Shown here one piece after another: positions 10,641 to 57,509 of a stretch of DNA of 64,000 nucleotides. Below the pieces are notes generated by a model. The model made no database searches, was not told the origin of the DNA, and was given only the letters and a program-made list of their open reading frames with translations. Position 1 is the stretch's first letter. Each line of letters starts with the position of its first letter. Origin of the DNA: Chiloscyllium plagiosum. Its lineage: Eukaryota. The position numbers and the translations under genes are program-made. The stretch covers positions 6,137,520-6,201,519 of the forward strand of contig NC_057753.1 in NCBI RefSeq assembly GCF_004010195.1, read 5' to 3'.

Positions 10641-11548
10641 TTAACATAGTAACGATCTTCGTCCTGCTTTATAAAGATTGTGGATTATCTCCATGTGTCA
10701 GTTGTTACCTGGTGGCCATGGCAGTGGCGGATCTACTAGTCATTTTCCTCGACCTGATATTGAGACACATTCCCATTGTTTATCAAGAATCATTTACTTT
10801 CTGCTATTCAATCCCTGTATGCAATGTCCACGCTGTCATGCTCTATGCAGCCACAGATTGTTCTGTCTGGTTCACCGTCACTTTCACCTTTGATCGGTTT
10901 GTGGCCATTTGTTGCCAGAAGCTGAAAAGGAAATACTGCAGTGAAAATTCGGCGGCTGTTGTTCTGGGAACAGTGACTGTGCTGAGCTGTTTAAAGAACA
11001 TTTTCTGGTATTTTATGCACACAGGTCAGTACTTGATGGGCAATGTCCCTTGGTTTTGTGATGTAACAGATGATGTTTATGAGTCTGGTGTCTGGGTCAC
11101 AATTCAGTTCGTCCATCACATTCTAACACCAGCTCTCCCATTTGTCCTGATTCTGCTGCTCAATGTTTTCACTGTGAGGTACATCTTAGTAACCAGTAAA
11201 GCCCGCAGAAGAATCCAGGCTCACACCAACAGGGACTTTCAGTGTGGCACAGAAATGGAAAATCGAAAAAAATCTATAATTTTACTGTTTGTGGTGTCAG
11301 TCAATTTCATCCTATTATGGTCAATGTTAATGGTGTTTTCTATATGGAGGTGGGCGCGGTATTTGGGGTGTAAATCAATCTATCTGCCTTGGTTTGTGCA
11401 GGAATTGGGCTTCATGTTGCAGCTCCTCAGTTGTTGCACAAATACCGCCATTTATGCCGTGACCCAGACGAAGTTCAGACAACAACTGAAGAATGTGCTG
11501 AAATATCCCTTTACCCAAATTCATCAATCAATCAAATTCATCCATTAA
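10641..11548 (+). CDS. Terminal coding exon (end of TM1 to C-terminus) of a GPR139/GPR142-like rhodopsin-class GPCR; first coding exon not found in the window
   Basis: Open frame with hydrophobic segments and class-A motifs: (V)NIVTI (TM1), LVAMAVADLL (TM2), C..FTFDRFVAIC (TM3), PFVLILLLN (TM5), NFILLWS (TM6), SCCTNTAIY..TKFRQQL (TM7/helix 8). It is preceded by a pyrimidine tract and acceptor tttgtttgccttcctcacag (AG at 10639-10640), giving a phase-1 junction G|TT AAC. Confidence 0.92.
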
Positions 11549-11713
11549 TCTATACATTCAAGATGTATTCAGTTCAATTCTATTTTCAGCAATGAAGCTA
11601 TGTTAACAGACAGGGAGTAGTCCTCAACCTTACCCCATTGTTTACGGGGCACTTTCCAATGTTTCTTCAGCAACCAGTTATTCCACTTCCTGCATCAACA
11701 ACATTAATTTGTA

Positions 11714-11725
11714 AATAAAAATAAA
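11714..11725 (+). promoter_or_regulatory. Tandem polyadenylation signals of the GPCR gene
   Basis: AATAAA twice (11714-11719 and 11720-11725), ~170 nt after the TAA stop. Confidence 0.65.
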
Positions 11726-11919
11726 TGTCCATTAAAAAGCGTCAAGTAGCAGAGCTTTCTTTTTGGTTGTTGAGCAATGCTGAGCTAGAGAGAGACAGAA
11801 TAAGCCTGAACTGCTGATCCTCAGGGGAGTGGACGGTCAGGCATTGATCTCAGGAGTTGGGAGTAAGTCACTCTGTGCTTGCTTTCACTTCTGGTGACAC
11901 AATCTTCAAGCTTTCCCTT

Positions 11920-13830
11920 CACATCTATTGTTTAAATGGTGAAAAAATACAGCATGCTGCCCTTGTGCATGAATTGCAAAATGTTGGTTTGCAGGTGCAG
12001 CAGGTCTTTAAGAAGGCAAATGGAATATTGTCCTTTGTCGCTAGACAGATGAAGTTAAAACTTAGGGAGGTTGTGCTGCAGCAGTATGGGGTGCTGGTGA
12101 GGCCATCCTAAGAGTACATTGAACAGTGTTTGTCTCTTTACTTGGGAAAGGATGCACTGACACTGGAGGGGATGTAGAGCAGATTCACTAGATTGATGCT
12201 GGAATTGTGAAGTTTGTTCAAAGTTTGTGAGAAGAGTTATAGCTCGGGTGCTCGTTGTTGTGCTTCTGTTTGCCGACCTGAGAATTTGTGTTGCATACGT
12301 TCCGTCCTCTGTCTAGGTGACGTCCTCAGTGCTTGGGAGCCTCCTGTGAAGCGCTTCTGTGATGTTTCCTCTGGCATTTATAATGGTTTGTCTCTGCGCT
12401 TCCGGTTGTCAGTTCCAGCTGTCCACTGCAGTGGCCGGTATATTGGGTCCAGGTCGATGTGTTTTTTGATAGAATCTTTGGATGAGTGCCATGCTTTCTA
12501 GGAATTCCCTGGCTGTTCTCTGTTTGACTTGTCCTATAATAGTAGTGTTGTCCCAGTCGAACTCACGTTGCTTGTCATCTGCGTGTGTGGCTGCTAAGAA
12601 TAGTTGGTCGTGTCGTTTCGTGGCCAGTTGGTGTTCATGGATACAGATCGTTAGATGTCTTCCTGTTCGTCCTATGTAGTGTTTTGTGCAGTCCTTGCAT
12701 GGGATTTTGTACACTACGTTGGTTTTGCTCATGCTGGGTAACGGGTCCTTTGTCCTGGTGAGTTGTTGTCTGAGAGTAGCTATTGGTTTGTGTGCTATTA
12801 TGAGTCCTAGTGGTCTTAGTAGTCTGGCTGTCAGTTCAGAAATGTTCTTGATGCATGGTAACGTGGCTAGTCCTTTGGGTTGTGGCCTGTCCTCATTCCG
12901 TTGTCTCTCCATTAGACATCTGTTGATGAAATTGCGGGGGTATCCGAATACATTGTAGTGGTGTTGTTCTTCCTCTTTTTGCAGTTCTGGTGTGCTGCAG
13001 TGTGTTGTGGCCCTTTTGAACAGTGTCTTGATGCAACTTCTTTTGTGTGTGTTGGGGTGGTTGCTTTCGTATTTCAGGACTTTGCCTGTGTGTGTGGCTT
13101 TCCTGTATACCTTTGTAGTGAATTCTCCGTTAGGTGTTCTCTGTACCCTCACGTCTAGGAATGGGAGTTGGTTGTCCTTTTCTTCCTCTCTCGTGAATCG
13201 GATTCCTGTGAGTGTGGCGTTGATGATCCAGTGGGTGTTTTCTATTTCTGTATGTTTAATGATTACAAAGGTGTCATCTACATATCTGAACCAGAGTTTG
13301 GGTTGAATTTGCGGTAAGACTGTTTGTTCTAATCTTTGCATTACAGCTCCTGCTATGAAGTTTGTCTAACGAGGAGGGATTGAATATGCTGGGACTACAC
13401 TAATCGGAATTTTTAAAAAAATTATGTGGGGGGAATCTTATTGAAACATGCACAGTAATGAAGAGAAAAAAGATAGAAGCAGGGAGGTCGTTTCCACTGG
13501 CAGGTTAAACTAGAATTGGGGGCAGAACCTCAAAATAAAGGAGAGTAGGCTGAGAACTGAATTCAGGAGTAACGTTTTCAAACACAGACTTACGAATGCA
13601 TAGAATTCCCTGCCCAGTGAAGTAGGTGAGGCCACTTCGTTGAATCTTTTAAAGGCAAAGATAAATTTTTGAACAGCAAAGGAATTCAAGGTAATGGTGA
13701 GCAGGCAGGGAAGTGGAGCTGAGTCCACGGAAAAGATCATCGATGATCTCATTAAATGGCTGAGCAGGCTCAATGGACCAGATGACCTCCTGCTGCTTCA
13801 ACTTATGTCCTTACGTCATGTTCTTATCTG
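11920..13830 (+). mobile_element. CR1-type LINE 3' fragment split by a Penelope-like insertion
   Basis: LQVQQVFKKANGILSFVAR before the insertion; CR1 C-terminus and tail after 13356. Confidence 0.8.
12218..13355 (-). mobile_element. 5'-truncated Penelope-like element (RT C-terminal part plus GIY-YIG endonuclease)
   Basis: ORF 12409-13341 has WFRYVDDTF, LPFLDV, VYRKATHT and NVVYKIPCKDCTKHYIGRT..EH. It is flanked by a 10-bp TSD tgaagtttgt (12208-12217 and 13356-13365). Confidence 0.93.
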
Positions 13831-14216
13831 TCTTCCATCCATTGACCGACCCGCACCCAAACCTTCCCTCTTTCTTTCTCTTCTCCACTGATTTTATCAC
13901 TCTTTCAGTGTCCCTCTCACTCTCATTCTCCTTCAAAGATCTTCCCTCCTGCAAACTTTATCTCTCGAGCATTCCCTCTGACCCACAATTCCCTCACGTT
14001 TTTCAAACCTCTCTCCCTCTCACTGTCACTCTGGCTGACGTGAAGAAGCATTAAATGGCTGACCGACTGACTGACTGAGTCCTTCTGAACCAATTATACT
14101 GGCTTTGTAGATTAAAACACATGTCAAATTCAAATACTATCATCTTTCCGCCTCCTGCAGATGCTTTTGGTGAGACGTGAACCAATGTAACTTAATGCTC
14201 GACTGAGGAGGGAGAT

Positions 14217-15580
14217 AGGAGAAAGTGAGGACTGCAAATGCTGGAGATCAGAGCTGAAAACTGTGTTGCTGGAAAAGCGCAGCAGGTCAAGCAGCATCCA
14301 AAGATCAAGAGAATCGACGTTTCAGGCATGTGCCCTTCTTCAGGAATGAGGAAAATGTGCCAAGCAGGCTAAGATGATGAGGTTGGGGTTGGAGCGGAGG
14401 GACTGGAGGGCTTCACGTTGCGAGGGTGAGAGGTTGGAGTGGGTGAGAGGGGTGGACAGGTTGAGGTGGTTAGTGTCGCGGCGTCAGTAGGCTATGAAGA
14501 GATCTCTTCGACTGACTGAACTGGTCCTCACTCTGAACAACTGCTCTTTCCAATCGTCCCACTTCCTCCAAGCCAAAGGGGTAGCCATGGGCACCCGCAT
14601 GGGCCCCAGCTATGCCTTTCTCTTCGTAGGATATGTGTTACAGTCCATCTTCCGTAGCTACAATGGCAACACCCCCCACCTTTTCCTCCACTACATCGAT
14701 GACTGTATCGGCGTTACCTCGTGCTCCCACGAGGAGGTTGAACAGTTCATCCACTTTACGAACATCTTCCACCCCGAACTCAAATTTACCTGTACCGTCT
14801 CAGACTCCTCCCTCCCCTTCCTAGACCTCTCCATTTCTATCTCGGGCGACCGACTCGACACGGACATTTATAAACTGACCGACTCCCACAGCTACCTAGA
14901 CTACACCTCCTTCCACCCTGGCCCCTGGAAAAACACTATCCCATATTCCCAATTCCTTCGCCTCTGCCGCATCTGCTCCCAGGAGGACCAGTTCCAATAC
15001 CAAACAACCCAGGTGGCCTCCTTCTTCAAAGACCGCAATTTCCCCTGAGACGTGGTTGACGATGCTCTCTACCGCATCTCCTCACTTCCCGCTCTTCTGC
15101 CCTTGAACTCCGCCCCTCCAATCGCCACCAGGACAGAAACCCACTGGTCCTCACCTACTACCCCACCAACCTCCGTATACATCGTATCATCCGTCGTCAT
15201 TTCCGCCACCTCCAAACGGACCCCACCACCAAGGATATATTTCCCTATTTGCAGAACGTTTCAGAGAACACCTCTGGGACACCCGCACCAACCAACCCAA
15301 CCACCCGTGGCTGAACATTTTAGACTCAGCACCACCTTCTTGACCTGCAATCTTCTTCCTGTCCTCTCCGCCCCCACCCCCTCTCCGGCCTATCACCTTT
15401 ACCTTAACCTCGTTCTACCTATCGCATTTCCAACGCCCCTTCCCCAAGACCCTCCCCCCTACCTTTTATCTTAGCCTGCTTGTCATTGCTGAAGAAGGGC
15501 TCATGCCCAAAACGTCGATTGTCCTGATCTTTGGATGCTGCCTGACCTGCTGTGCTTTTCCAACAACACATTTTTCAGCC
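14217..15580 (+). mobile_element. Penelope-like element of a second family, with an inverted terminal repeat at its 5' end
   Basis: ORF 14494-15048 has GVAMGTRMGPSYA, FLHYIDDCIG, LPFLDL and IPYSQFLRL. 14252-14343 is the reverse complement of 15489-15579. TSD gaggagggagat / gaggggggagat (14205-14216 and 15581-15592). Confidence 0.9.
14316..14343 (-). ncRNA. Minimal type-I hammerhead ribozyme motif in a Penelope-like terminal repeat
   Basis: Minus strand reads CUGAAGA-A-GGGC-acau-GCCU-GAAA-CGUC. Both catalytic boxes, helix II (one G-U pair) and a GUC cleavage triplet are present. Confidence 0.7.
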
Positions 15581-15782
15581 GAGGGGGGAGATTATAAACG
15601 AAATGGTACAAGGCGAAACTGAGTGAAAGGAGAAAGACAAAATGTTATCATGTATTGTATCAGCACAGGAGAGAAGCAAACTGACAAATTATTTTTTCTT
15701 TCATCCATTCCCTCACAGTCACACTCACTCCTTCACATATACAGGTACTCCCTCACAAATATATACCTAAGACCCATATACG

Positions 15783-16053
15783 GGGAGGCGATAGCCTAGT
15801 GATGTTTTCCCTGGACAGTTCATCCAGAGACCCAGGTAATGATTCAAGGATCCGGGTTCGAATCCACCATCGCAAAAATGTGGAATTTGAATACAGTAAA
15901 TATCTGGAATTAAGAATCTAATAACTACTATAATTCCATTGCGAATTCTCAGGAAAAAAAAACATCTGGTTCACTGAACGCCTACATCTGACACAAAAAA
16001 GTGGTTGACTGCAACTGCCCTCTGCGGCAATTAGAGATGGGCAATAAATGCTG
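15783..16053 (+). mobile_element. Second tRNA-derived SINE family
   Basis: A-box-like tagcctagtg, B-box ggttcgaatcc, body atctggttcact..gtggttgact and a gggcaataaatgctg end. Related pieces occur at ~26750-26990 and ~28935-29025. Confidence 0.75.
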
Positions 16054-16689
16054 TGTTTGTACGTGTGCGTGTCTGAATGTGTGAGAGCATGGCAGAGTGT
16101 TTGTGCGTGCTAACATGTATCCGCGTGAGTGTCTTTTGTGCCAGATTCAGTGTGTAAGAGAGATTTCATGTAAAAGAGAATGAATGCAACTTTGTGTTCG
16201 TCTGTGTGAGTCGAGAAGGAACTTCAAAGGGCTATTAATATCTTCAACGAAAGAAAATATCTGACCTAGAAAGATTCGCAGTAAGAGTTCCTCATGTTCC
16301 CAATACAATCTCCTAGCAATAACTGGCAATGTATCTTTTATCCTCCTCAATGTTTGCTCTACAATCATGTTTACTTTCTAATATAATCAACAATCACTGG
16401 ACAACAAAGTTCAAACATTTCTATCATTTCAAACCCAAGCATTCTGGTTTTTTTCTTCCCTGTTCTTCCTACAGACATGAATCATATTTTGCCACAAAAT
16501 ATTTCCTCTGCCAATGCTTGAAATTCACCAGACAAGATACAGGCAGCAAAGTGGATGACATGATGAGATGTAACAAACTCTGTTACATTCAGTATCCTCA
16601 TATTGCAATGTGCGAGTTTCCAGTCAGAAAGCTGGACTCCCACAGGGAGAAATCCTCATTGGTTTGGAGGTAAGGACGGCGTATACAGT

Positions 16690-17475
16690 GGGACCTTGAT
16701 CAGATGGAGAATTCAGCCAGGGATTGACAAATGCTATTCAATGCAAATAAATGTGAGGTGTTGCACTTTGGAAAGTCAAAACAATGTAGGACGTGTACAG
16801 GAAGTGGTCAGGTCTTGAGGAATGTTATGGAACAGTAGGACCTAGGAGCACAAGTACAGTTCTTGGAAAGTGGCGTCACAGGTAGATAGGGTGGTGAAGA
16901 AGGCATTTAGCATTCTGGCCTTCCTTGGGTGATGCATTGAATACAGGAGTTGGGATGTTGATGGTAGTTTTGGTCACCCTGTTGTAGAAAAGACATAGGT
17001 AAACTGGAAAAAGTGAAAAGAAGAATATTGCCAAAACTAGTGGCCCTGAGTTACAGACGAGATTTGCCAGGATGGGACTTTATTCATTAGAAGGAAGAGG
17101 AATGAGGGGTGAACATATCGAGTTGCACAAAATCATGACAGGTATCGATAGGATCAATGTAGATCGTCTTTTTCCCAGGGGTCGGGAATTGAAAACTGAA
17201 GGGCATCGCTTGAAGGTGAGAGGGGAGAGACTTAAGAAGACCCTAAAGGGCAACTTCTTCACTCAGAGTAATGCGTATATGGAATGGGCTGCCACAGAAA
17301 GTGGATGAGGCAGGTACAAAAAGAATAGATAAGAAGCATTTACATAAGAACATGGATGAGAAGGGTTTAGAGGAACACGCAACTAGCTGACCGGGCACCA
17401 TGGTCAGCATGAACCCGTTTGAGCCCAAGGGCCTGTTTCCATGCTGTATTACTCGACAGCTCTATGACTCGATGG
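16690..17475 (+). mobile_element. CR1-type LINE 3' fragment
   Basis: GLYSLEGRGMRGEHIELHKIMTGIDR..KGNFFTQ and tail gggcctgtttccatgctgta..ctctatgactc. Confidence 0.88.
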
Positions 17476-18479
17476 TGAGGAACACTCATTTTAATATGTC
17501 AATGAGATCGTTTGTAAGTCTTTGCTGCGCCTTGAGATTTCTCTACGTTAATTTCCATTGCTTCCTTACTAAGGGAACCTGTTCATATCTGGTTAAAGAC
17601 TCTTCAGTCATTCCCACTGCTTCCTCTCCTACCCAACATAATCTTGTCAATAAGCCTGGAGATATTACATTTTTCCCTTCGTCTAATTTATTGACATTGG
17701 TTGTAAATATTTGTAGATTTAGCAGTGACCCTTCCAGCACAACACAAGTACCAGCTCATCAAACAAGAAATGAGCCTGTCTACTCTCCACCAGCCAATCC
17801 TATACACTGCAGCAAACACTGTTACATTGATTGCGTTGTCTGACCTAAGTTAAACTTTTGTAATGTACTCTCAGAATGAGAGTGATGAGAGAGGGAGACA
17901 TAGAAGTGACAGATAATGTGAGAGGGAGACAGAGAAAGGGAGAAACAGAACAAAAAAGAAAGACAAGTGCAATAAGTGTGACAGATATATGTATAGTTCT
18001 CAAAAGATGATTTAAAAGAAAATCAGAGACAGATCTCTCGTTATCGGACAATGTGATGATGTAATTTCAAACCAGTGGGCAAGGGGTTTTCGATGTGAAA
18101 AATATAGAGGGGATTTCTTACCTTGTACCTAACGCCGTGCAATACCTGCCTTGAAACTGTTTGGTGAGGATGGTGGGGTAACAGATTTATTCTGCACTGC
18201 ACCCCGATTGTTCCTGCGCTTGGTGTGTACAGAGGATAGTACACTGACAATATTTCTCTTTGTTTCGGCTCTGGTATCACCGTGCAATGAATTTCTGGAG
18301 GGGGATTGGGCATCTTATTGAAAAGCATCCAATTCTAACAAGGCTGGACGGACTACAGCGTATATGCAGGGAAGATGTTTCGCCTGGTGAGGGAGCCTCG
18401 AACAAAACCTCACAATCTCAGGATTTGGGAGAGGCCGTTTCGAATTGAGATGAAGGGAACTTTTTTTTTCCCATTTTGA

Positions 18480-21400
18480 GCTGCGGTGGAAGCGGTGAGA
18501 GTGTGTGCCAGGGGGCTGCTGGGAAGGTAAATTTCCCTCTAAAATGACTTACCTGGAGATGCATGGGCCTCCATCTTCAGCACCAACAGGAGTTAGTGAG
18601 AGAGCGAGGAACTGAGCGGGAGTGGTTGAGTTGCGCTCTGGGAATGTGAGTGAACGGATATGTTTGGACAGTGACTGAATCTGAACACTACACGTGCAGT
18701 GTCTCTCATCCACCCTCCTCCTCTAATCATTTAAAATATTGTTTCTTTTTTTATCGTGTGACTAGTGATTTATTTTCTTTGTTTTCAATACCCGAATGTT
18801 TGATATTATAGTTGGAGAAAGTTAAGCCTAAGATTTAAAAATGACAAGAGATCTCCGACCCGGGTTATGTCCCTCTTGTTCTAATGTGGGAAGTCAGGGA
18901 CGTGGTTGATGTCCCTGGCTCCTTCACGTGTAGAAAGTGTGTTCAACTGCAGCACTTGTTAGGCTGCATGAAGGCTCTGGAACTGCAGATGGCCTCACTT
19001 TGGAACATCTGCAATGCTGAGGAGTTCATGCCTACACGCTTAGCAAATTGCTCACACCACAGATTAGGAAGGCTGAGGGAGAAAGGGAATGGGTGACCAA
19101 AAGGCAGAGAAAGAGCAGCGAGGCAGTACAGGTGTCTCCTGCAGTCACCTCTCTCCAAAAGAGGTACCTGTATATACTTTCGATACTTTTTGGGCTAACG
19201 GCACATCAGGGGAAGACCGCAGTAGTCAGCTTCATGGCACTATGGCTGGTTCTGTTGCAGAGGAGAGCGAGCAAGGTCTATAGTAATCGGGGATCCCATT
19301 GTAAGGTGAGTAGATAGGCAGTTTTGTGGTCGAAAACGAGACTCCAGAAAGGTATGTTGCTGCCCAGGTGAGCAGGTCAGGGATATCTCAGGTAGGCTGC
19401 AGAACGTTCTGAAGGGGGAGCATGAACAGCGAGTTGTCGCACAGCATATAGGCAAGACTATATAGGTAAAAAATGGGATGAGGTCCTTTCAGCATAATTT
19501 AGGGATGAGGACCTCAGAGTTGTAATCACAAGTTTGCTACCAGTGCCACGTTCCAGTGAGAGTAGAAGTGAAAGAATAGGGAATATGAATGCGTGGCTTG
19601 AGAGATGGTGCAGGAGGAAATGGTATAGATTTTTGGGACATTGCGAACGGATCTGGGAGAGGTGAGGTTATTACAAATTGGACGGTCTACAGCTTGGCTG
19701 GATTGGAACAAATGTCCGTGGAGGTGCTTCTGCTAATGGTGTTTGGGAGGGTTTACCTAATATGCCGGGGGCATGGACCCCAAATGAGGAGGCCAGCGAA
19801 CAGTAAGGAGGTATTAACTAAACTCTGTAAGGAAATAGATAATGATGTCAGCATGAAGAGACATGTGGTCTAAGTCAGGTCAACTTAGAGCTCGAATTAG
19901 TTCGTGGGAATGTGATTGTACTGCTATTACTAAGACTTAGTTGAGGAAAGAGCATGCTTGGAAAATAATTATCTCAGGATGTATATGTTCCAGGTGGGAT
20001 AGAGAACGAAGTAAAAGGGGTGGAGGAGTTGCATTACTGTTCGGGGAGAATATCACAGCTGTGCTGAAGGAGGGAATTATATGGGACTGGAGCTGTGAGG
20101 CAATATGGGCAGAATTCAGAAAAAGGAAGGGTGTAGTAGCAATGCTGGGGCTGTACTCTCGGCCTCCCAACAGCGCGCGTGAGATAGAGGTACAAGTATG
20201 TAAACAGATTATTAAAAGATGTCAGAGCAACAGGGTGGTGGTAGGAGATCTTAATTTTCCCAATATTTACTGGAATTCACTTAGTGTTACAGGTCTAAAT
20301 GAAGCAGAATTTGCAAGAAACATCCTGGAGTGCTTTCTAGAGCAGTATGAAAATAGCCCAACTCGGAAAGGGGCCAGAGTGCATCTGATGTGGGCGAATG
20401 AGCCCGGCCAGGTGTTTTAAGTTTCAGTAGGGGATTACTTTGGGAAGAGTGATTACAATTCCGTAAGTTTTAGAATACTCGTGGACAAAGATGAAAGTGG
20501 TCCTGAAGGAATAGTGCTAAATTGTGGGTGGCACGGTGGCACAGTGGTTAGCACTGCTGCCTCACAGCGCCAGAGACCCGGGTTCAATTCCCGCCTCAGG
20601 CGACTGACTGTGTGGAGTTTGCACGTTCTCCCCCTGTCTGCGTGGGTTTCCTCCGGGTGCTCCGGTTTCCTCCCACAGTCCAAAGATGTGCAGGTCAGGT
20701 GAATTGGCCATGCTAAATTGCCCGTAGTGTTAGGTATCGAGGTAAATGTAGGTGTGGACTTGTTGGGCCGAAGGGCCTGTTTCTACACTGTAATGTAATC
20801 TAATCTAATCTAAATTGAAGGAAGGCCAACCGAACCAAAATTGGACAGGAGTTGTGGAATGTGGATTGGGAGCAGCTGTGTGAAGTAAAATCCACATTTG
20901 ATGTGTGGGAGGCTTTGAAGAAGGTTTGATTAGAGTGCAGAACCAATATGCCCCAGTGAAAATGATGGATAGAAATGAGAAGATTAGGGAAACATAGATG
21001 ACATGTGAAATTATGAGACCAGCTAAGAGGAAAAAAAAACATGCAGAACGTCTAGTGACTGAAGACAGACGAAGCTTTGGAAGAATGTCATGAATACAGG
21101 ACCAATCTGAAACGAGGATTTTAAAGGTTTCGAAGGGGTCATGAAATATCATTAGCAAACAGGGTTAAGTATAATCACATAATTTTATTCACATCAGAAG
21201 CAAGAGGGTAACGGGTTGGCCCACTCAAGGACAGAGGAGAAGTCAGAGAAAATGTGCCAAATTCTTAACGAATACATTGCATCTGTATTCACCAAAGAGA
21301 GCGTCAGGACGGCTGTTGAGGCTAGGGATAGATGTTTTATTACTGTAGATCAAGTCGACATAAGAAGGGAGGAAGTGGGTATCCAAAAGGCATTAAGGTC

Positions 21401-45630: not shown

Positions 45631-45869
45631 AAGAATGATAAAGGACCATTTATCCCAAACAATGGAATTTTACACAAGAAGGCTGGATGCATCGTTGGAG
45701 TATGAAATGTGCACATTGTAAACGTCTTTACCAAGGAGGCAGCTCTTGTTAAAACATTATAAGAAAGGAGTATAGAGATTGTGTGAGCTACAAATTATTA
45801 GCAGGATGTACAGACTAGGTAATTTAACTATAATTATATTCGTATGGGAGCCGGACCTGATGACATATA

Positions 45870-47262: not shown

Positions 47263-48269
47263 CATTTTTGAACTGAATTTTAATAATCTCTAAAGATTCT
47301 GATGGCGTTTCCAGCAAATTTAAGTGCTGGGTTGTTGCTGTAACTGTCTCTCCGTTCAGCACAGAAGGATACAGATCCAACCCCAGCTTATCTGCTATGT
47401 CCAGCAAACTTGCATTTCTCAGCTTTTGTAAAAACCCTAACGTCACTTATTCCACCCTCAGACAACGCTTGTTGAGTGAAAGAGCCATTGCGATCCCAAG
47501 CACTGATTCAACCGACATAGTTCAACAACCAGAAACAAACTGACATATGCCATTCGCTGCCTTCGAGATCAATTCGTCTCATGCGAATTTGGAGCTATAG
47601 AATAAATCTCGCAAAACCCTCCCAGTCAGTTATAAATCAGCCCAGTCTCCTACAAAACATTTCAAGAATGTGGCCAAGACCATAATGTTGCTAGTTTTAA
47701 GCAGGTGTAACGCGGGTGTTTCAGGAGTGATATGACTTGTTAATCCGGTCAGTTAAAAATAAAAAATATATACTTGCAAGTTCACCAAATGAAACACAAT
47801 CAAAAGAGAACAGATTACAAAATAATTTAGATTACCTGAGCACCCAACATTTTACCCTGACCAAATATTCGGTTTCCCAGTACTTGCAACAATCCCCACA
47901 AACATCCCTTAGCACAAAACCTAAAATCAAACACTCGGTTTTACAGGAGAGAAGTCAGAGGGAGTGACGGGTCGCATGGACCTGCTTCTTTGGATTAAGC
48001 AACATCAAATTTGCCTGATTGCTTTCATTGAATTGCCAGACTGCCAAAAATGCAACTAAACCAGAGAATAGCTACGCTGGGAGAACTGGCCCCATCTCTT
48101 TCATTGCTCAAGTGTTTTCTTCTTTCAAAAACACGGGAAAGCCTTTTGCTAGAGGCAGTATCAAATTGGGTCCAAACAATCCACATCCAGATTTTTCAGA
48201 ACATGTGTATTTTACATCCTCCTCGAAAAAAGAACAGCATAACTTTAAGAAAGGAACAACATTATCACA
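47263..48269 (-). mobile_element. LTR (~47628-48269) plus leader and gag N-terminus of a Gypsy-type element
   Basis: MALS..VTLGFLQKLRNASLLDIADKLGLDL resembles the gag start at ~52460 (LTKLIELGDKLEMEL). LTR-like termini agtta...tcaca with a degenerate PBS-like stretch next to them. Confidence 0.65.
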
Positions 48270-49293
48270 ATGGCATGACTTTAAATTGAGACAGTCCATC
48301 CGCCATTTGGAATTTCAAAACTGCCCTCGCTCTTTTGGATAAAAGTACCTGCAAATATCATTTGTGTCGGTCCAACTTCAATGTATAGGATGTTTGTCCC
48401 ACCTTTTCAACAAAGTCTTCTAAACATGGAGACGTATATGAATCAGACTTTGCATATGCATACTTTGCAATAGTACACTGTGCGATAGTACACACATAAC
48501 CGTTGGGCACTGTCTTGCTTTGGCTCTATTCGCTATGGGCGAGCACCAGTCATTGCAACACAATTCGATTAATTTGTCTTGGAGCATGTCTTCAATCTCT
48601 TTTTGAAGCTGAGCTTATTTAGATGATTAGGTCTGCAAGAATGCTGGTTCATGGTAATATTATTTCCTTTCTGTACATAATGCATACTTAAATAATTACT
48701 CCTCGCCTACGACCACATATCTCCCCATGCTATAGCAATAACTCTTTCAGATCATTTTAATTTTCCTCCGGAAGGTAACTCAATCCTTTATTCTGATTTA
48801 TGACAAAGTCCCCATTGTTCAATTTAATTTGAGGAAATTCCAATTCTAAGTCCCTTTACCTTGATTCATCATTCTTTGTTGTAACTAATAGCACATACTC
48901 CGTTTGCTTTCCTTACCTAACATTTACCTTTTAAGCATTTTGACATGACACACTCTGTAAGATTTCTTTCTGTCTAGTTTTCTTATCAAATAGTTCAGCT
49001 CATTCAATCTCTTTCCGACTTGATAAGTTTCACTAAACCTTGATTTAAAATGTTCGCTCATCACTGGACGTAACACTAATACTTCACCTTCGTCAGCAAA
49101 ATCGCGAATTTTTTATTTCTTTTTTTTCATCTTTTGTCGTATTATGTGATATTTTAAACGTTGTCCCGTCAACTTCCCGTCAAATGTGATGCACAGTCTA
49201 CATATGTAATCATTGAGTACTGACACACTAATTTCTTCTTAATTAATTTCAGTTGTTCTCACAAATCATGTTAGAAAGCTAATGGCATTTTTT

Positions 49294-49604
49294 TAGATTA
49301 GATTATTTACAGAGTGGAAACAGGCCCTTCGGCCCAACAAGCCCACACCGACTCTCCGAAAACCAAACCACCCAGACATATCCCCCACATTTACCCCTTC
49401 ACCTAACACTAGGCGCAACTTAGCATGGCCAATTCACCTAACCTGCGCATTTTTGGGACTGTGGGAGGAAACCGGAGCACCTGAAGGAAACCCACGCAAA
49501 CACGGGGAGAATGTGCAAACTCCACACAAGCAGTTGCCTGAGGCGGGAATTGACCTCAGGTCTCTGTTGCTGTGAGGCAGCAATGCTCCCACTGTGCCAC
49601 CGTG
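49294..49604 (-). mobile_element. HE1 V-SINE inside the Gypsy integrase region
   Basis: Full head, V-domain and tail in reverse orientation. Confidence 0.93.
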
Positions 49605-50563
49605 ACACCTAGTAGACGTTTTTAAATTATTTATCTGCAATAGCAAAAGATACAAGCGGAATTCCTACATTTCAATGGTCTGGATAACCTTGAAATTATG
49701 CCCTCAACGTGGTGTTTCGTGTGTGACCACACGTTTCTTGCATGCCCTGCATTTCTATGTGGTTTACAGGATGAATGATACAATGTGAATTGTATTATTC
49801 ACCAGCTGTCCATAACTGTCTTAAATAAATTTGGAGTAATAATTGACCCTTGAGCTGACTGGATTTCTGTGAGTAATCCCTATATTATGGAAAAATTGAT
49901 TAGCATTTCCACAATCCTTTTAACTGTGATTAGCCCAGTAGTATGACATCTGGCCATCAAATGCATCAATCCATTATTGTTAACAAATATTGATTCCCAC
50001 TCTTTATTTTAACGTTCATTTATCTGTGATTTGCGTAGTGGTATGACATCAAGATATAAAATGATCAATCCATTCTTGTTAACAAATATTGACTCTCACC
50101 TTTTTTTGTTTTAACGTAGGGATGTTACATGATCAGTTAAGATTCTTGTAAAAGATTCCTCAAATGCAGGAATGGTTATTAAAGGAGCAGATATTAAGTT
50201 TGCCTGCGGTTTTCCCATTAGCTGACATCTGTAAAACGACTGGCAAAATTCAGCTTCATTCTTGTGCAGTCCAGGTCAATAAATTTGTTTTTTGTATTTT
50301 AACTTGAGTTTTTCTTACAACCATGTGATGTCCATTTTTGAGTTTATGCGCTATACGCATCTCGTCCTTTCAATAACCGACTGTAACATGGCTTGATGAA
50401 CTGCTACCCATTTCACATCTGCCTGAATATGTCGTGGCCATCATTTTTAACCTAGCAACATCCAGAGATATACTCATACTCTCCTTTATTCAACGCTTTT
50501 TGATACAATTGCTTCAGTTTCTCCTCATTGTGTTGTTCCTCAGTTAATTTCCCTGAAGTAAAG

Positions 50564-50967
50564 NNNNNNNNNNNNNNNNNNNNNNNNNNNNNNNNNNNNN
50601 NNNNNNNNNNNNNNNNNNNNNNNNNNNNNNNNNNNNNNNNNNNNNNNNNNNNNNNNNNNNNNNNNNNNNNNNNNNNNNNNNNNNNNNNNNNNNNNNNNNN
50701 NNNNNNNNNNNNNNNNNNNNNNNNNNNNNNNNNNNNNNNNNNNNNNNNNNNNNNNNNNNNNNNNNNNNNNNNNNNNNNNNNNNNNNNNNNNNNNNNNNNN
50801 NNNNNNNNNNNNNNNNNNNNNNNNNNNNNNNNNNNNNNNNNNNNNNNNNNNNNNNNNNNNNNNNNNNNNNNNNNNNNNNNNNNNNNNNNNNNNNNNNNNN
50901 NNNNNNNNNNNNNNNNNNNNNNNNNNNNNNNNNNNNNNNNNNNNNNNNNNNNNNNNNNNNNNNNNNN
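50564..50967. other. Assembly gap (404 N)
   Basis: Run of N. Confidence 1.
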
Positions 50968-52499
50968 TGCTGCAGCTTTGTAGCCTCCACTGTGCTTTCC
51001 AAAAAAAACTCCAACAAAATTCACTGGCTGTTCCTTTTTCCGACATCCTGCTTCCCATTGATTTTTTTAAACCCACCAACACTGCGATTTCATGTGGCCT
51101 ATTTTATTGCAGAAATAATACAAGAAATTTTAAATTCTTATTCTCCTTCCGGGGTTTCCTTTCTACTTTGTGATCAATTATCCACATTATCTTCACTGAG
51201 ACCCACTTTTTGCTATCACATGAAGATTTCTCTTTTCCCCAATTTCTATCCATCACGGATGCAAATTGATGTTAGAAGCCAACCTTTGATTCATGACCAA
51301 ATCATCATCGCCAATCATTTCAGCCGTTAATCTTGCCGTTTTAACTTTGTGCTCTTCCACATGATTTCTCACTACTTCCGGAATTGAATTGTTTAATTCT
51401 TCCAAAATAATCGCCTCTCTGAGAGAGTCATACTTTTGCTCTTTTGAATGCGCTTATCCACCTATCAAACTAAATTGTTTGATCAATTCAATCTGAATAG
51501 AAATTGACCGCTCTCAGTCCTTAGATTGCTGAACCATTGTCTGTACCTCCTCTAATAGTGATGGAAGTACCTCACGAGCTCTACCCACCAGGCATGTCTG
51601 AATCCACAAACACACATGATCATTTGACACTTTATTTGTTTCATTGTCTTCTCAAATGAGATGAAAGCGTTTTCTAAACGTTCTCATCAACCTTGGACAA
51701 TCTTTGAATGTGTTGAAGCCGATCACCACCGGGCGTTTTGCTCTGATGCTTTCCTCTACCCACCAGGCATGTCTGAATCCACAAACACACATGATCATTT
51801 GACACTTTATTTGTTTCATTGTCTTCTCAAATGAGATGAAAGCGTTTTCTAAACGTTCTCATCAACCTTGGACAATCTTTGAATGTGTTGAAACCGATCA
51901 CCACCGGGCGTTTTGCTCTGATGCTTTCCCTCACAAAGCCTCACTTCTATCTTCACCTCCATCCTTTTAAGCCGACCTTCCTCTCTGAGTACCAATTTAT
52001 GGAGTTCAAACTCTTTCTTTCTCCCTTTCGTTCTTCTTTCTCATTTTATTTTATTCCTTCTACCTCATTTTCTTTTTGTTCTGCTCAAACGATTCTATGC
52101 TTCTCTTTTTGTTCTGCTAGGGCCTTCCGTTCTTTTTGTTTTATCCTCCACTTTTAATTGTGATGCAAATTGTTTATTTTATATTACTATTGCCTTTCCT
52201 TTTGCGTCTAACTCAAGCTGCGTCATTTTCAATTGGATTTTTGACATTTCCAAAAATCCAATGGTGTTTCCAGAAAATTCAAATACCCAGCAATAACTTT
52301 CCTTTTCTCACAGCTGAAGGCAACTCCATCTCCAACTTATCTCCCAATTCTATCAGTTTTGTAAGAGTTTCTGACTGCTTGCAAAAACAAACGAATCCCA
52401 AACAAATCCTGAACTGGGGCGACTGACCACTTCCCCGCCATTGATTAGAGTAGCCATTTTCAGGCATATGAGCATCTCTGCCTTTGCGACACTTCTTGT

Positions 52500-55400
52500 A
52501 AAAAGACAAGGACAGAATAACCTTGTTAATAGGGGAGCAACGTCACAATTTGCATTATTTGTATGGAGAGATGCACCAAATGCATCCCTCAAATTCACTT
52601 CGCTTGAATTAGTTGTTGGGCGTGAGATGAAAAATGTCACTGAAATGAATGAAGGAGAAATTGGTAACTCACGTATTTGGATTTTGATTCGTGTTGTTTG
52701 GAAAGATTAAATAAAGCAGGAGTTGGCTTGGCAACATTTAAAAAAATGACAGGATGGGATGAAACAAAAAAAAGAAGTAAAAATTCGCAGTTGTGCTAAT
52801 GGAAATAAAGTGTTGGTAAGAATTCCACCAATACGTCAATCTTTAAAAACAAGGTTTACTTGCACTCTTTATTTCGAAAGCTGGTTAGAATAATAGTGGG
52901 TCGAAAATAATGTCTCGTTCCCTTCAGGAGAGGAAGTGCTCTTCTGAGCTTAAGGTGCAGCAAACTTTGGCAGCATAGGGAGCAGATGGGCGAGAGGCTT
53001 TTCCAAAATGGATGCATGTAACAATTTGCTATAAATGGATGCATGAGTTTTGGTTGTTGTTTTGACAACAGTTGGAATCAGTCCAATTGATTTAAGTCAA
53101 ACTCTCAGACCTTCAAAGACATTCGTATGTAAACTCTGATGGTGCAGGAACTGACTGAAAACCGTCCTCTGATACGAACTTCAGCTGTTATCCAGGATGT
53201 ATAAAAAAGAGTGTTTTTGAAAATCAGAGAAGAACAACTGCGACCGAAAGAAAACCAACAGCCCTGAACAGTTCTGAAAGAATTTTCAGATAGCACTCTC
53301 CATTTAACATACCTAGGAGTTTCATACAAAGATTCTAGAAATTTGAAAAGAAAATCCAAGCAGGAACAGGAGAATCAGATGAACTGAAAGAAGCCGCAGA
53401 TTTGGAAAATGGAAAAGAAGACAGAATAAGGGACTCATTAGACTTTGAGAGTCTGCCTTAATTTAACGTTTGTAAATTGCTTTATCTGAGAAGCATTTTA
53501 ATCGACTAAGGATGAGATAGTAATTGGTTAATAGAAAAGGGTTGGCTAACAATTCTTTTTAGAGTTAGGATTATGTTCTTTAAACAGTGGAAAGAAGGAG
53601 TTTTCTTTCAATCTCTAGCATCTTTAACAGATTAGAAGATAAGGCGGGCTTCTCCACACGTGTTAATCAGTGGACTGGGGGTTCGAACTCGGAACGAGAT
53701 GAGAGGAGTTGAATTATTTAATAAGAACATCAGATAGACAGAAAACGCACAGATGTGTCATGTGAATATGCTCATAAATTGTTTTGCCAAGTAAGGAAAG
53801 TGAAAGGTGAATATAATGTTTGTTGCAAAATGGAAGAACCATATTTGGATAATTCTAAATTGGACAGTTCTCAAATTGAATTGGGCAATGAGGAAGTTCT
53901 CAAAATTAAGAAATTACTGACTCATCTTCCAAAGGAAAAGCGAAACGACCTGAACGAGTGTTTGCAATCAGATGGACAGATATATAGGAATAAGCGTGTA
54001 ATAAATAATCTAATTATTCATGATGTTGATATGCGAAATATAGTTCCACTTAAGCAACATTCTTATGAATTCAACCTTCAACATTTGACACAGGTTCGAA
54101 AAGAGATTGAATGAGTACTCAAAACCCCAACAATCGAACTGTGTTACAACACCCGGAGCTCACCCTTAACAACAATGCGAAAAAAATTAACATCCAATGA
54201 TTAGATATGGACTATTGCGGATTCAGTCTATCTCTAAGTCTATTTTAGATTCTGAGAGGCAGTGTCCTACAGTATGGAGACAGATCCATTGGCATAAAGA
54301 GGTCCATGCCAAACAAAAGGTCCTCCAACGCTTAGTCAATTTTCCTGCGCTTGCCCAGTATTCTTCTGAACATTCCTAACCATGTATATGTCCAAATGTC
54401 GTATTAATGTCATTAATGTTTCCACCTCAAACATTTTTGCTGGCAGCTAATTCCATATACGCGCTACCGTCTGTGTAAAAATGTCTTTTTTTTTCCTTTT
54501 CCCTCTAACCATAAACTGATGTCCTCTCGTCATTGATTCTCCAATCTTGGAGAAGACAAAGACTGTGTGCATTCAACCTCGCCAGACCTCTGATGATGAT
54601 ATAGACGTCAAAAAGGTTTCCTCCTCTCACTCCTTTTGCTCGAAAAATGAAGGCATAGCTTTATCCAACTTCTTCCTATAAGTCAGATATTCTGCACTCA
54701 TTCCAGTTTAAGAACATTTCCTCCTTTAGCAATTACTGCAAGTGTGGTCTCACCACCATCCTGTAGAATTGAAACATGACTTCGCAATATCTGCACGCGA
54801 TGCCCTGACTGATGAAGGCTAGTTTTCCAAAGCCTCCTTCATTGCCATGTCTACCTGTGACTCCACTTTCAGAGAACTCCGCACCTGAAGTCCAGGGTCC
54901 ATCTGCTACCATACATTCCGTATGTCCTTACCATTCAACACGAAATTCCTACCTAAATTTGACTTTCCAAAATGCAAGACCTCCTATTTATCTATACGAA
55001 ACTGCATTTGTCATTTCTTGGTCCACTTCCCCAGTTGATCAAGGCCCTGCTTAAATTACTGGCGAACTTACACACTGTTCACGATACCATCTATTTTGGT
55101 GCCAGCTGCAACCTTACTGATCATGCTTCGGATATTCTCATCGAAATCATTGAAGTAGATAACAAGCAGCAATGTGCCCAGCACCGACCCGTGAGACACC
55201 CCACCAATGGAAAGCCTCCAGTCTGACAAACATTCTTCATTATTACGCACTGCTTCCTACTAATAAACCAATTGTATATACAATTTGCCAACACCCTCGG
55301 ATGCCATGCAATCTTAGCTTCCGGAGCAGCATAACATGTGGAACCTTAGCAAAGGCCTTACTTAAATTCATATAGACTACATTTACTGTCCTTCCTTCAT

Positions 55401-56440
55401 CAAGCTTCCTTGTCACTTCATCGAAGAACTCTGACGAGTTTTTAAGGCATTATTACAGATATGAAAGACTGTATTGACAAGTTGGGACAAGTAAGTTATA
55501 TTTCTGATTGGGCTTACTCTGAGGATACTGGCAGAATGCTTTGTTTAAAAGAGAGAAAACAAATTGGCTTATTATTACACCAATGGACGACACCATTTGA
55601 ATGTATTGCCATTCAACATGAAAAATGAAACAGCTCAATTTCACTTATTATGAATTATAAATTTCTGTAGTGTATATCAATGACGTGGTGACTTTCAGTC
55701 AGACATGGAAGGAATACTTGCTACATCTTTGTAATTTTTGATTGACATCGGGACGGAGGCTTTGTGGCCAACTTGCGTCGAGAAAACTAATAAAAGCCCA
55801 AGCCACATTCAGGAGCCAAATCACCGGACCTGAACAGATGGTCTCAAAGGATGTGAAAACAGAGACTATGAAGCAGACAGCAGCACTACAATTCTTGGAA
55901 TTGGGTCATCTTATCGAAATTTCTACTTAACATTATCTCTGTGGTTTGTCCACTAACTGACTTATTTAAGAAGAACAGAAAATTTCAATGGACAATAGTC
56001 TGCCATTTGACAACCTGGAAGCTGTGTTATTCTTTAGCCCAGTGTTAGCCACTATTCATTATACTAGTCTATTCGAAGTGGCTTTCAATATGTGTGATGT
56101 GGGTGTCTGTACTGCACTCTTCTACGAATACAACAAGAAGGTAGAAAGACTCAATGGCTAATTTTTCAGAAAATTGGATACTCAAGAACAGAAGTATTCC
56201 AAGAGTGGGAAGGAAACCTTAAGATTTGTGATGGCGTTATGATATTTTAACGTTCATATCGAGAGTATTGCGTCTGAGACTATTGTATATACTGAATATA
56301 ACGCATTAAAGTAGTTTTTGGTGATGTTTAACGAAAACAAATTCAACGCTGCTTAAGGGAATGTATTGTTGAATGCATTCAATTTGAAAGTTACACAGGT
56401 GGCAAGTTGAAAAAATGTGATTGTTGACTTGTCGTCGCGA
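52500..56440 (+). mobile_element. Second decayed Gmr1-like Gypsy fragment (integrase C-terminus, linker, RT, RNase H) with nested insertions
   Basis: LFVWRDAPNASLKFTSLELVVGRE (integrase end); LIIHDVD..PLKQHSY..VRKEIE (pre-RT); VVYINDVVTFSQTWKEYL (RT, YIDD-like); FFRKLDTQEQKYS..KETL..TIVYTEYNAL (RNase H). A probable LTR insertion lies at ~52900-53690. Confidence 0.75.
54255..55450 (-). mobile_element. CR1-type LINE RT-to-3' fragment inserted in the Gypsy RT
   Basis: GGVSHGSVLGTLLLVIYFNDFD..ISKVAAGTKIDG. Confidence 0.85.
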
Positions 56441-56461
56441 CTTTTATGAAGAACTTTGATG

Positions 56462-56770
56462 AAAGTGGCACACTGGTTGGCACTATAGTCTCAATTCCAG
56501 CTTTGGGAAACAGCCTATCTGGAGTTTGCACATTCTCCTTGTGTCGACCATGGTTTTCTCCCGGTGAACTGATTTCCTCCCACACCTCAAAGATATTCAG
56601 GTGAAGTAGATCGAAAGTGTTAACTTGACCTATATTGCGCAGATTAGGTGGGGTGGCATTAGGGAATGCAAGTTTACAGGAAATAAGTGGGTCTGAATCA
56701 GATACTCTTCAGAATGTTGGTGCAGACTCGATGGGCTGAATGACCTGCCTCTACACTGTTGCGATTCTAT
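56462..56770 (+). mobile_element. Diverged HE1-type V-SINE
   Basis: ggagtttgcacattctccttgtgtc..tttcctcccacac and a gggctgaatgacctgcctctacactg end. Confidence 0.8.
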
Positions 56771-57442
56771 TATGTCAGTTGAAGACACCATCTGCCCTTA
56801 AGCTGTGGCATCGATTAGATTTTGCCAGACTTCATTCTCTTGTGTCATCACGAATTTGAGTTGCAGCAGTTAGAGATATTGGAACTACTTGTCTTGTGAA
56901 ATTAATCAAACTATTTATCTGTTGTATAGTACAATAGATAATGGCAAAGAAAAAAAATCTTCAACCATTCAACTGAACATTTAATTTTAAAGAAGGCAGC
57001 CACATTCCAATGTGTAGCAGAACAGCGATGAGGTCGACACTCTCTAATTTTGATCTAGTTGCTGAGTTGACATACTTGAGTGGGAAAGAAATACTAAAAT
57101 GACAGACGAGACGAACGGTCTTGAGTGAGGAGATAATTGTTGAAGGAATGTGTATTGGATTTTCCTTTTATTGATACTTGATCAATATGAGTAGAATTGT
57201 TTATTTACTGAAAATTTCAAATTCAATCTCGGATGTGAATATATGTTATCACAATACTGTCTGCACCCAATGTCGTAATCTGTTTGCTCATTTTATTTTT
57301 GGAGAACAGAATCGAACGATGTTGTTAAATCATCATTCCCGTGGAGATTTCACAGGGCATATATTAGAGGCTGTTAGCAAGCATAGTTTACAACAGAGTG
57401 AGATTGCTTGCAGCGTGAAGTGTTAGCTAATTAGTACGAATA

Positions 57443-57509
57443 ATGATAGATACATTTTTCAATATTGATAAAATATACTATACAGTCCTTGCCATCATTG
57501 GTGTTCCTG
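57443..57509 (+). CDS. First coding exon of a second GPR139-like GPCR paralogue (MIDTFFNIDKIYYTVLAIIGVP + G)
   Basis: ATG, 22 codons plus 1 nt, then a consensus donor G|GTAAGT at 57510. The peptide YYxxLAIIGVP is the start of TM1, and its phase-1 end fits the TT AAC (V-N) start of exons like 10641. Confidence 0.85.

What the first reader, a model, noticed from the sequence alone, without database searches (positions are those of the whole stretch)
10641..57509. Tandem cluster of GPR139-like GPCR genes: candidate lineage-expanded amino-acid or chemosensory receptor family
Seen: an intact TM1-TM7 exon and, ~46 kb downstream on the same strand, the first exon of another gene with a compatible phase-1 split in TM1, so at least two paralogues lie head-to-tail. 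Established: mammalian GPR139 and GPR142 are single-copy receptors activated by aromatic amino acids (L-Trp, L-Phe), and cartilaginous fishes have very few OR-type olfactory receptor genes. Inference: a clustered, divergent, two-exon family in repeat-rich DNA has the genomic organisation of a chemoreceptor repertoire and may be an uncharacterised sensory receptor system in sharks. Function cannot be read from this sequence.
Basis: partly seen in the sequence, partly recalled or inferred. Interest (0 to 1): 0.75.

Follow-up and report, generated by a model that had tools for sequence, protein, structure and literature searches.

The report
Huge shark orphan receptor family
Two pieces of receptor genes in this shark DNA belong to a very large family of cell-surface receptors in sharks, rays and chimaeras whose outward-facing loops change fast while the inside stays fixed, as expected of a set of chemical sensors, though where they are used and what they detect is untested.

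Summary
Observation confirmed. 10641-11548 is an intact class A GPCR exon (mid-TM1 to stop). 57443-57509 is a first exon from another subfamily with a matching phase-1 donor. Neither gene is whole in the window, and two assembly gaps lie between them.

The family is large: 2087 of 2774 candidates matched at E<=1e-10, and the 120 listed are all shark proteins, 58 from the horn shark. It is not GPR139 itself (25 bits to the human protein). It groups as one chondrichthyan branch (90/92, unstarred) beside low-copy bony-vertebrate relatives.

Among close paralogues, extracellular loops differ three times more than intracellular loops (60 of 62 pairs); the related amphibian gene shows the reverse (0 of 11). 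The GPR139 amino-acid anchors R244 and N271 are absent in 123 of 123 close relatives, which argues against Trp/Phe sensing in the GPR139 manner.

Best reading: a diversified sensor repertoire, probably for peptides and probably chemosensory (0.45). Tissue expression is untested; immune and skin-nerve roles remain open. Nine literature searches found no description. This scan noted the same family earlier in a ray genome (e1-7813824).

The parts
10601..10640 (+). 3' end of the intron of gene A: polypyrimidine tract and AG acceptor (10639-10640)
   Evidence: Sequence. Relatives begin the matching exon at the same residue.
10641..11548 (+). Coding exon 2 of gene A: second half of TM1 through TM7, helix 8 and stop; 301 codons after the split codon. 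Has D2.50, C3.25 plus ECL2 cysteine, DRF, P5.50, W6.48, N7.49, Y7.53; lacks P6.50 and P7.50 like its family
   Evidence: 65-83% identical to 120 shark proteins
11714..11736 (+). Candidate polyadenylation signals of gene A (AATAAA 11714, AATAAA 11720, ATTAAA 11731), implying a short 3' UTR
   Evidence: Motif scan; use not shown
57443..57509 (+). Coding exon 1 of gene B: short N-terminus and first half of TM1 (22 codons plus one base), another subfamily than gene A
   Evidence: Profile score 33.6 against next best 8.0; best matches are first exons of Hypanus and Stegostoma proteins whose second exons are 41-48% identical to exon A
57510..57515 (+). GTAAGT splice donor of gene B, phase 1
   Evidence: Sequence
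11737..57442 (.). Spacer of interspersed repeats and decayed retroelement frames, with two assembly gaps (46763-47262, 50564-50967); no further family exon found

Best explanation
The two exons come from two members of a large family of two-exon class A GPCRs in cartilaginous fishes, distantly related to GPR139/GPR142 (shown). The family spread by repeated local duplication and was already diversifying before chimaeras split from sharks (inferred from trees). Its members keep the membrane core and the intracellular face, so they probably feed one signalling route (inferred). They diversify the ligand side in two tiers: the deep pocket differs between subfamilies and the extracellular loops differ between recent paralogues (shown at protein level). 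The likeliest working is a many-inputs, one-output sensor repertoire: gene A's subfamily would hold an aromatic or greasy anchor group in a conserved deep pocket (Y3.33, H5.42, W6.48, L/F6.51, F7.39) while the variable loops read the rest of a larger ligand, probably a peptide (inferred). The likeliest site is chemosensory cells of nose, mouth, skin or gut (inferred, untested).
For: Size: 2087 of 2774 candidates at E<=1e-10, clusters at 90% identity; 120 of 120 listed are sharks, 58 Heterodontus and 28 Rhincodon. Clustering: 16 of the 28 Rhincodon rows share one contig length. Depth of divergence: 111 clusters at 50% identity with E<=1e-30; 21 of 21 looked up are chondrichthyan, one a chimaera. 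Loop bias: in 62 disjoint close pairs (14% divergence) 32% of extracellular-loop sites differ, against 11% intracellular and 10% non-pocket TM; ECL>ICL in 60 of 62. In 11 pairs of the one-per-species amphibian relative (13% divergence) the figures are 10%, 26% and 13%; ECL>ICL in 0 of 11. Pocket entropy across 78 distant members 2.58 against 1.49 for other TM sites and 2.05 for outer non-pocket sites (p=5e-8, 0.003). Core under constraint: 20 of 31 common paralogue differences are synonymous against 22% expected. The GPR139/142 lineage shares its origin with FMRFamide, MIP and proctolin peptide receptors (PMC8514136, passages). Catshark has only 34 V2R genes and 4-9 of each other olfactory family (PMC10116579, passages).
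Against: No expression in a sensory organ was shown. In one single-cell RNA sample of unrecorded tissue 94 reads of 12.96 million records (about 2% of the run) fitted at >=85%, none at >=99%, and a second run of the same sample gave 0; the listed loose ends at the 5' side carry intron sequence, and no spliced junction was among the rows shown. Fast loops can also reflect relaxed constraint, gene conversion or escape from pathogens; dN/dS by site was not computed. Within gene A's subfamily the pocket is no more variable than other TM sites (0.60 against 0.56), unlike an odorant-receptor pattern as I recall it. All catshark olfactory neurons examined express Go and TRPC2, which the authors read as a V2R system (PMC10116579). 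No GPCR was among the top 50 genes of a catshark brain-plus-nose library (PMC11979771; a weak test). Sequences are related, so the p-values overstate independence. The pocket position list is recalled, not from a call.
Confidence: 0.45

Rival explanations
1. Immune or barrier surveillance receptors, working like formyl-peptide receptors: leukocytes or epithelia detect varied microbial peptides with a shared anchor group.
For: Conserved deep pocket with hypervariable loops among recent paralogues suits a race with microbes. Species-specific bursts in the tree. The FPR comparison is recalled.
Against: No sequence link to FPR or chemokine receptors beyond the shared fold: GPR139 is the best solved relative of the family profile (83.5 bits, next 66.1). 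No immune expression seen; the one readable supplement of a nurse-shark spleen paper (4,750 characters) had no hit, which tests little.
Confidence: 0.2
2. Somatosensory chemoreceptors, working like rodent MRGPRs: sparse expression in trigeminal and dorsal-root neurons or mast-like cells, detecting peptides and irritants at the skin.
For: Clustered family with nearly the whole coding region in one exon and a peptide-receptor ancestry. The MRGPR comparison is recalled. Tan et al. report that MAS1 and related receptors are lacking in cartilaginous fishes (PMC8455134, passage), so that role may be open.
Against: No ganglion expression data; not MRGPR by sequence (no such hit among 48 solved relatives listed at E<=1e-12).
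Confidence: 0.12
3. Near-neutral amplification in repeat-rich DNA, or germ-line expression with little ligand function; loop variation is relaxed constraint.
For: Repeat-rich setting; many annotated members are partial or short; gene A departs from 5 positions that are >=85% conserved, two of them (C54, G202) shared with 0 of 197 relatives; few RNA reads.
Against: Open frames, conserved core (D2.50 in 200 of 201, N7.49 and Y7.53 in 198 of 201), excess of synonymous differences (20 of 31), and persistence across sharks, rays and a chimaera.
Confidence: 0.12
4. Free amino-acid receptors that bind Trp or Phe as GPR139 does.
For: GPR139 is the closest solved relative. H5.42 and W6.48 are kept and 3.33 is aromatic in gene A's subfamily (H 119, W 123, Y or F 119 of 123).
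Against: N271A strongly cuts Trp and Phe responses and R244 is modelled as the polar anchor (PMC5430874, passages). These positions are F and L in gene A; N in 0 of 123 and R/K in 0 of 123 close relatives, N in 5 and R in 5 of 78 distant ones. The amphibian relative keeps F3.33, K6.51 and N7.39 in 22 of 22.
Confidence: 0.08
5. The two exons are halves of one gene misplaced by assembly, or the ordinary shark GPR139/GPR142.
For: Splice phases match, each partner exon is missing from the window, and two N gaps lie between them.
Against: First-exon length and sequence belong to another subfamily. Only 25 bits to human GPR139, less than the low-copy coelacanth and salamander relatives score (70 and 53 bits). 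Thousands of paralogous proteins are on record.
Confidence: 0.03

Closest known systems
GPR139 (human; PDB 7vug, 9m42) and GPR142
   Same: Best solved relative by sequence for the window protein (25 bits) and the family profile (83.5 bits, E=1.2e-22). Shares W6.48, H5.42 in gene A's subfamily, and the lack of P7.50. An intron inside TM1 in GPR139 is recalled, not checked.
   Different: Very distant in sequence. Family has C3.25 and an ECL2 cysteine (194 and 193 of 201) where the printed GPR139 alignment shows no cysteine at 3.25. Lacks P6.50, R6.51 and N7.39. Many copies. In the fold search GPR139 ranked only 18th among near-equal class A hits.
Low-copy GPR139-like genes of bony vertebrates (amphibian and sturgeon clade 'B', P0244; coelacanth, teleost and amphibian clade 'A', P0240); probably among the subtypes that Rinne et al. 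named GPR210A/B (PMC6504862, passage), mapping not tested
   Same: Closest non-chondrichthyan matches (30-32% identity). Clade B is sister to the family in both trees (SH-aLRT 92; 88/79).
   Different: One cluster per species in 20 of 20 amphibian rows, with a nearly invariant pocket and conserved outer loops. The sister link is weak: a tree joining A and B is not rejected (AU p=0.28).
Vertebrate chemoreceptor families OR, TAAR, V1R/ORA, V2R/OlfC
   Same: Clustered multigene family with lineage-specific bursts and a variable ligand side.
   Different: Separate origin; no olfactory-receptor Pfam family among 5 families matched by 50 members (7tm_1 in 50, Srx weakly in 4). Sensory expression not shown.
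FPR and MRGPR expansions of rodents; nematode srw chemoreceptors
   Same: Peptide-type class A receptors multiplied into a sensor set. srw arose from peptide or SOG-type rhodopsin receptors (PMC3963977, abstract). FPR and MRGPR features are recalled.
   Different: Not homologous at family level; different lineage.

Membership tests
Class A (rhodopsin-like) GPCR | 7tm_1 domain and seven-helix fold | tested here: met
   Pfam 67.4 bits over cut-off 30.5; model pLDDT 88; Foldseek top 50 are class A receptors, TM-score 0.57-0.74
Class A (rhodopsin-like) GPCR | Activation motifs D2.50, D/ERY, CWxP, NPxxY and TM3-ECL2 disulfide cysteines | tested here: inconclusive
   D2.50, D-R, W6.48, N7.49, Y7.53 and both cysteines are kept; P6.50 and P7.50 are replaced. 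Signalling is not shown.
GPR139/GPR142 lineage in the broad sense | GPR139 is the best-scoring characterised relative | tested here: met
   against solved structures only; GPR142 did not appear among the hits
GPR139 (orthologue) | High sequence conservation and one copy | tested here: not met
   25 bits to human GPR139; many paralogues per species
GPR139 (orthologue) | Trp/Phe site residues F3.33, H5.42 (5x43), W6.48, R6.51, N7.39 (7x38) | tested here: not met
   Gene A has Y, H, W, L, F; R/K and N absent in 123 of 123 close relatives
GPR139 or GPR142 (orthologue) | Nests with vertebrate GPR139 or GPR142 in a tree; shared synteny | not testable with these tools
   No canonical GPR139/GPR142 sequence was returned; no genome is held
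Chemoreceptor repertoire (works like OR/TAAR/V1R/V2R) | Large clustered family with lineage-specific turnover | tested here: met
   the copy number in this genome was not counted
Chemoreceptor repertoire (works like OR/TAAR/V1R/V2R) | Ligand side diversified, transducer side conserved | tested here: met
   with the amphibian gene as control; the pocket varies between subfamilies but not within gene A's subfamily
Chemoreceptor repertoire (works like OR/TAAR/V1R/V2R) | Sparse expression in chemosensory neurons | not testable with these tools
   Tissue of the laid runs is unrecorded; the catshark expression supplement was unreadable
Chemoreceptor repertoire (works like OR/TAAR/V1R/V2R) | Activation by external chemicals | not testable with these tools
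   Needs an assay
OR, TAAR, V1R or V2R (membership) | Sequence match to those families | tested here: not met
   Only 7tm_1 and weak Srx among GPCR families in 50 members

The most novel reading that the evidence does not exclude
Cartilaginous fishes have their own chemoreceptor family, with hundreds of genes per genome, independently derived from the GPR139/GPR142 peptide-receptor lineage and expressed sparsely in olfactory, taste or skin sensory cells. It would explain keen smell in animals with only about 35 V2R genes and a handful of ORs.
Probability: 0.35. Interest if true: 0.92.

Novelty: new variant of a known kind. Interest (0 to 1): 0.72.

Why it matters
Shark genome papers describe a paucity of GPCRs and very small olfactory repertoires in cartilaginous fishes (PMC8455134, PMC11979771, PMC10116579; passages seen). 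A large family filed in databases under the single label 'probable GPR139' sits outside the four families those studies searched. If sensory, it is a separate origin of a vertebrate chemoreceptor family; if immune or somatosensory, it is an undescribed receptor system in the oldest jawed-vertebrate lineage. Public RNA data can decide between these at once. The conserved one-per-species amphibian relative gives a clean comparison and a route to the ancestral ligand.

Tried and rejected
Own-genome paralogue count: no genome is held. RNA holders: no RNA holder listed for the stretch; no evidence either way. Getting canonical GPR139/GPR142 for the tree: searches returned none, so both trees lack them. 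Further family exons or relics in the window: none by tblastn with 120 proteins or family HMM in six frames (next best E=0.49). Fold search does not separate GPR139 from other class A receptors. Summed contig depth in run X11 (up to 563,000 in the exon against 24-30 in the unique 3' flank; 3086 contigs) fits several hundred or more copies even after allowing a 31-fold overlap of words, but the tool says it is no copy number and the run type is unrecorded, so it is not counted as evidence. Literature searches for a description of the family; none of the listed titles and abstracts describes it. Tan et al. supplements (24 files) held one GPR142 orthogroup label only. A search of earlier scan notes by sequence found nothing. 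No complex prediction was run, as no partner is known.
Full report
What is in the window. Bases 10641-11548 (+) form one coding exon. It follows a pyrimidine tract and an AG at 10639-10640, starts with two spare bases, and runs 301 codons to a stop. It matches Pfam 7tm_1 at E=1.8e-18 and folds as seven helices plus helix 8 with mean pLDDT 88. It covers the second half of TM1 to the end of the protein. Candidate polyadenylation signals lie 166-183 bases after the stop. At 57443-57509 (+) lie an ATG, 22 codons and one base, followed by GTAAGT. A profile built from 118 first-exon tails of relatives gives this stretch 33.6 bits; the next best of 46,040 windows scores 8.0.

Two genes, both incomplete here. 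Among relatives with a scorable first exon, those at least 75% identical to exon A have first exons of 44 residues or more (18 of 18). First exons of 26 residues or fewer occur only among relatives under 60% identical (25 of 45). Exon B's best matches are Hypanus and Stegostoma proteins 41-48% identical to exon A. So A and B are different subfamilies. No first exon for A was found upstream, no second exon for B downstream, and no relic in between. Exon B may be a lone relic. Two N gaps separate them, so the 45.9-kb spacing depends on scaffolding. The rest of the window is interspersed repeats and decayed retroelement frames.

The family. A word-seeded search found 2087 proteins at E<=1e-10 among 2774 candidates, clustered at 90% identity. 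Only the best 120 were listed; my count of their names gives 58 Heterodontus, 28 Rhincodon, 11 Stegostoma, 10 Heptranchias, 6 Chiloscyllium, 6 Scyliorhinus and 1 Mustelus, at 65-83% identity. They are labelled 'probable GPR139', 'GPR142' or 'capa receptor-like'. Sixteen of the 28 Rhincodon rows share one contig length, and 10 of the 58 Heterodontus rows another, which points to clusters. The other 1967 hits were not seen. A full HMMER search of 50%-identity representatives gave 111 clusters at E<=1e-30. I looked up 21 of these and all are chondrichthyan: sharks, a sawshark, rays, a skate and a chimaera. The copy number in this genome could not be counted. The window gene groups with whale, zebra and bamboo sharks (100/99), so the source is probably a carpet shark (inference).

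Relation to GPR139. Human GPR139 is the best solved relative, but distantly: 25 bits for gene A and 83.5 bits for a 50-member profile, against 66.1 for the next receptor. The nearest non-chondrichthyan proteins are two low-copy bony-vertebrate groups, also labelled 'probable GPR139'. Group A has coelacanth, teleost and amphibian members; group B has amphibian and sturgeon members, with one cluster per species in 20 of 20 amphibian rows. Rinne et al. noted three such fish subtypes near GPR139/142 (PMC6504862, passage); I could not map mine onto theirs. In a 39-protein tree the 25 chondrichthyan rows form one branch (90/92, unstarred) with the chimaera protein nested inside, and group B is its sister (88/79). 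A tree joining A and B is not rejected (AU p=0.28), the outgroup branches are long, and canonical GPR139 and GPR142 are missing (a quick 109-row tree agrees).

Ligand pocket. Mutagenesis of GPR139 names F109, H187, W241 and N271 as important, with R244 modelled as the polar anchor (PMC5430874, passages). I placed these by counting from helix anchors in the printed alignments. Gene A has Y, H, W, F and L there. Among 123 close relatives none has N at 7.39 or R/K at 6.51; among 78 distant ones 5 have N and 5 have R. The amphibian group B keeps F3.33, K6.51 and N7.39 in 22 of 22. The family also has the TM3 and ECL2 cysteines and has lost P6.50. Sensing of free Trp or Phe in the GPR139 manner is therefore unlikely for gene A's subfamily.

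Pattern of variation. In 62 disjoint pairs of close family proteins (3-25% divergent, mean 14%), 32% of extracellular-loop sites differ, against 11% of intracellular-loop, 12% of pocket and 10% of other TM sites; the outer loops exceed the inner in 60 of 62 pairs. In 11 pairs of the amphibian gene at 13% divergence the values are 10%, 26%, 2% and 13%, and 0 of 11. Across 78 distant members the pocket is the most variable TM class (entropy 2.58 against 1.49; 2.05 for outer non-pocket sites). Within gene A's subfamily it is not (0.60 against 0.56). These sets hold the 201 near-full-length family proteins among those fetched at that point. Many of the distant ones are unnamed and assumed chondrichthyan, some are near-duplicates, some pairs may be orthologues or alleles, and the pocket list and helix limits are recalled or chosen by me. 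Of the 40 differences shown (74 more were not shown), I dropped 2 intronic and 7 single-contig rows; 20 of the other 31 are synonymous against 22% expected. That sample is biased to alignable parts. In the same call DNA-level depth dips at ECL1, ECL2 and ECL3 but also at ICL3, where gene A itself is unusual.

Expression. No RNA holder was listed. In one single-cell RNA run of unrecorded tissue, 94 reads of 12.96 million records fitted at 85% or more and none at 99%; a second run of the same sample gave none. Reads at the 5' end of the exon carry intron sequence and run mostly in one direction, while reads near the stop run only in the other. If the library is a 3'-end type, this fits priming at the T-rich tract plus a few true 3' ends of paralogues (inference; library chemistry is unknown). 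It says nothing on tissue.

How it most likely works. A constant inner face with a varied outer face suggests many receptors feeding one pathway. A conserved aromatic deep pocket under hypervariable loops suggests larger ligands with a shared anchor, such as peptides. This fits the common origin of GPR139/142 with FMRFamide, MIP and proctolin receptors (PMC8514136, passages) and the precedent of srw chemoreceptors arising from peptide-type receptors (PMC3963977, abstract). I put external chemosensing at 0.45, immune or barrier sensing at 0.20, somatosensory use at 0.12, near-neutral or germ-line amplification at 0.12, GPR139-like amino-acid sensing at 0.08 and artefact at 0.03. Against the first: catshark olfactory neurons were all Go and TRPC2 positive and were read as a V2R system (PMC10116579, passages), and no GPCR was in a top-50 brain-plus-nose list (PMC11979771, passages).

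What is known. The genes are in RefSeq under automatic names. Nine searches of the open-access library (listings and abstract starts seen) gave no description of the expansion. The whale shark paper speaks of a relative paucity of GPCRs in cartilaginous fishes (PMC8455134, one passage; 24 supplements searched). A zebra shark genome paper had no GPCR term in its main text (PMC10620051). A GPR139 review calls the gene highly conserved and its passages mention no shark expansion (PMC12208981). Subscription papers are not in the library. The catshark supplement and bioRxiv supplements were not seen and may hold expression data or a mention of the family. I confirmed ray and chimaera members, did not check its figure of about a thousand genes, and add the bony-vertebrate relatives, the lost anchors and the loop control.

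Verdict. Membership in GPR139 proper fails. The sequence evolves like a sensor repertoire, but organ and ligand are open. Novelty: new variant of a known kind. Interest 0.72.

Noticed in passing
P0244, P0276-P0295: A little-noticed GPR139-like gene, one cluster per species in 20 amphibian rows plus a sturgeon, with a nearly invariant pocket (2% of sites differ) that keeps F3.33, K6.51 and N7.39 and has N at 2.50 in 22 of 22. No amniote or teleost hit appeared among the 25 rows.
   Followed up: partly
P0240, P0253, P0266, P0300-P0304: A second GPR139-like group in coelacanth, teleosts, amphibians and a crocodile, with ERF instead of DRY and S or C at 6.48.
   Followed up: partly
window 11246-11248 and 10802-10804 (residues 202 and 54 of exon A): Gene A has G where 99% of the family has D at the start of the conserved ICL3/TM6 motif, and C at an ECL1 site that is 87% L; neither is shared with any of 197 relatives.
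   Followed up: no
window 10588-10640: Paralogous contigs and reads in three runs match the last 20 intron bases and then share one other upstream intron sequence, which suggests a large recently duplicated subfamily distinct from gene A.
   Followed up: no
window 12409-13365 (-) and 14491-15474 (+): Long retroelement-like frames; by eye Penelope-like (recalled motifs). Pfam gave only a weak RVT_1 match for the second (E=0.002) and none for the first.
   Followed up: partly
window 19941-22400 (+), also 5051-6640 and 24800-25455: Decayed LINE pieces: endonuclease match at 19941-20417 and RVT_1 at 21397-21831, with related copies elsewhere.
   Followed up: partly
window 46000-56000: AT-rich stretch around both N gaps with fragments that look by eye like a decayed LTR retrotransposon; no convincing Pfam match. 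A 175-base unit is duplicated head-to-tail at 51579-51928 with 99% identity, possibly an assembly artefact.
   Followed up: no
P0001, P0002 (Heptranchias): Two annotated proteins of 462 and 493 residues carry a second copy of the TM5-TM7 part (P0001 matches the exon twice); an internal duplication or a gene-model fusion.
   Followed up: no
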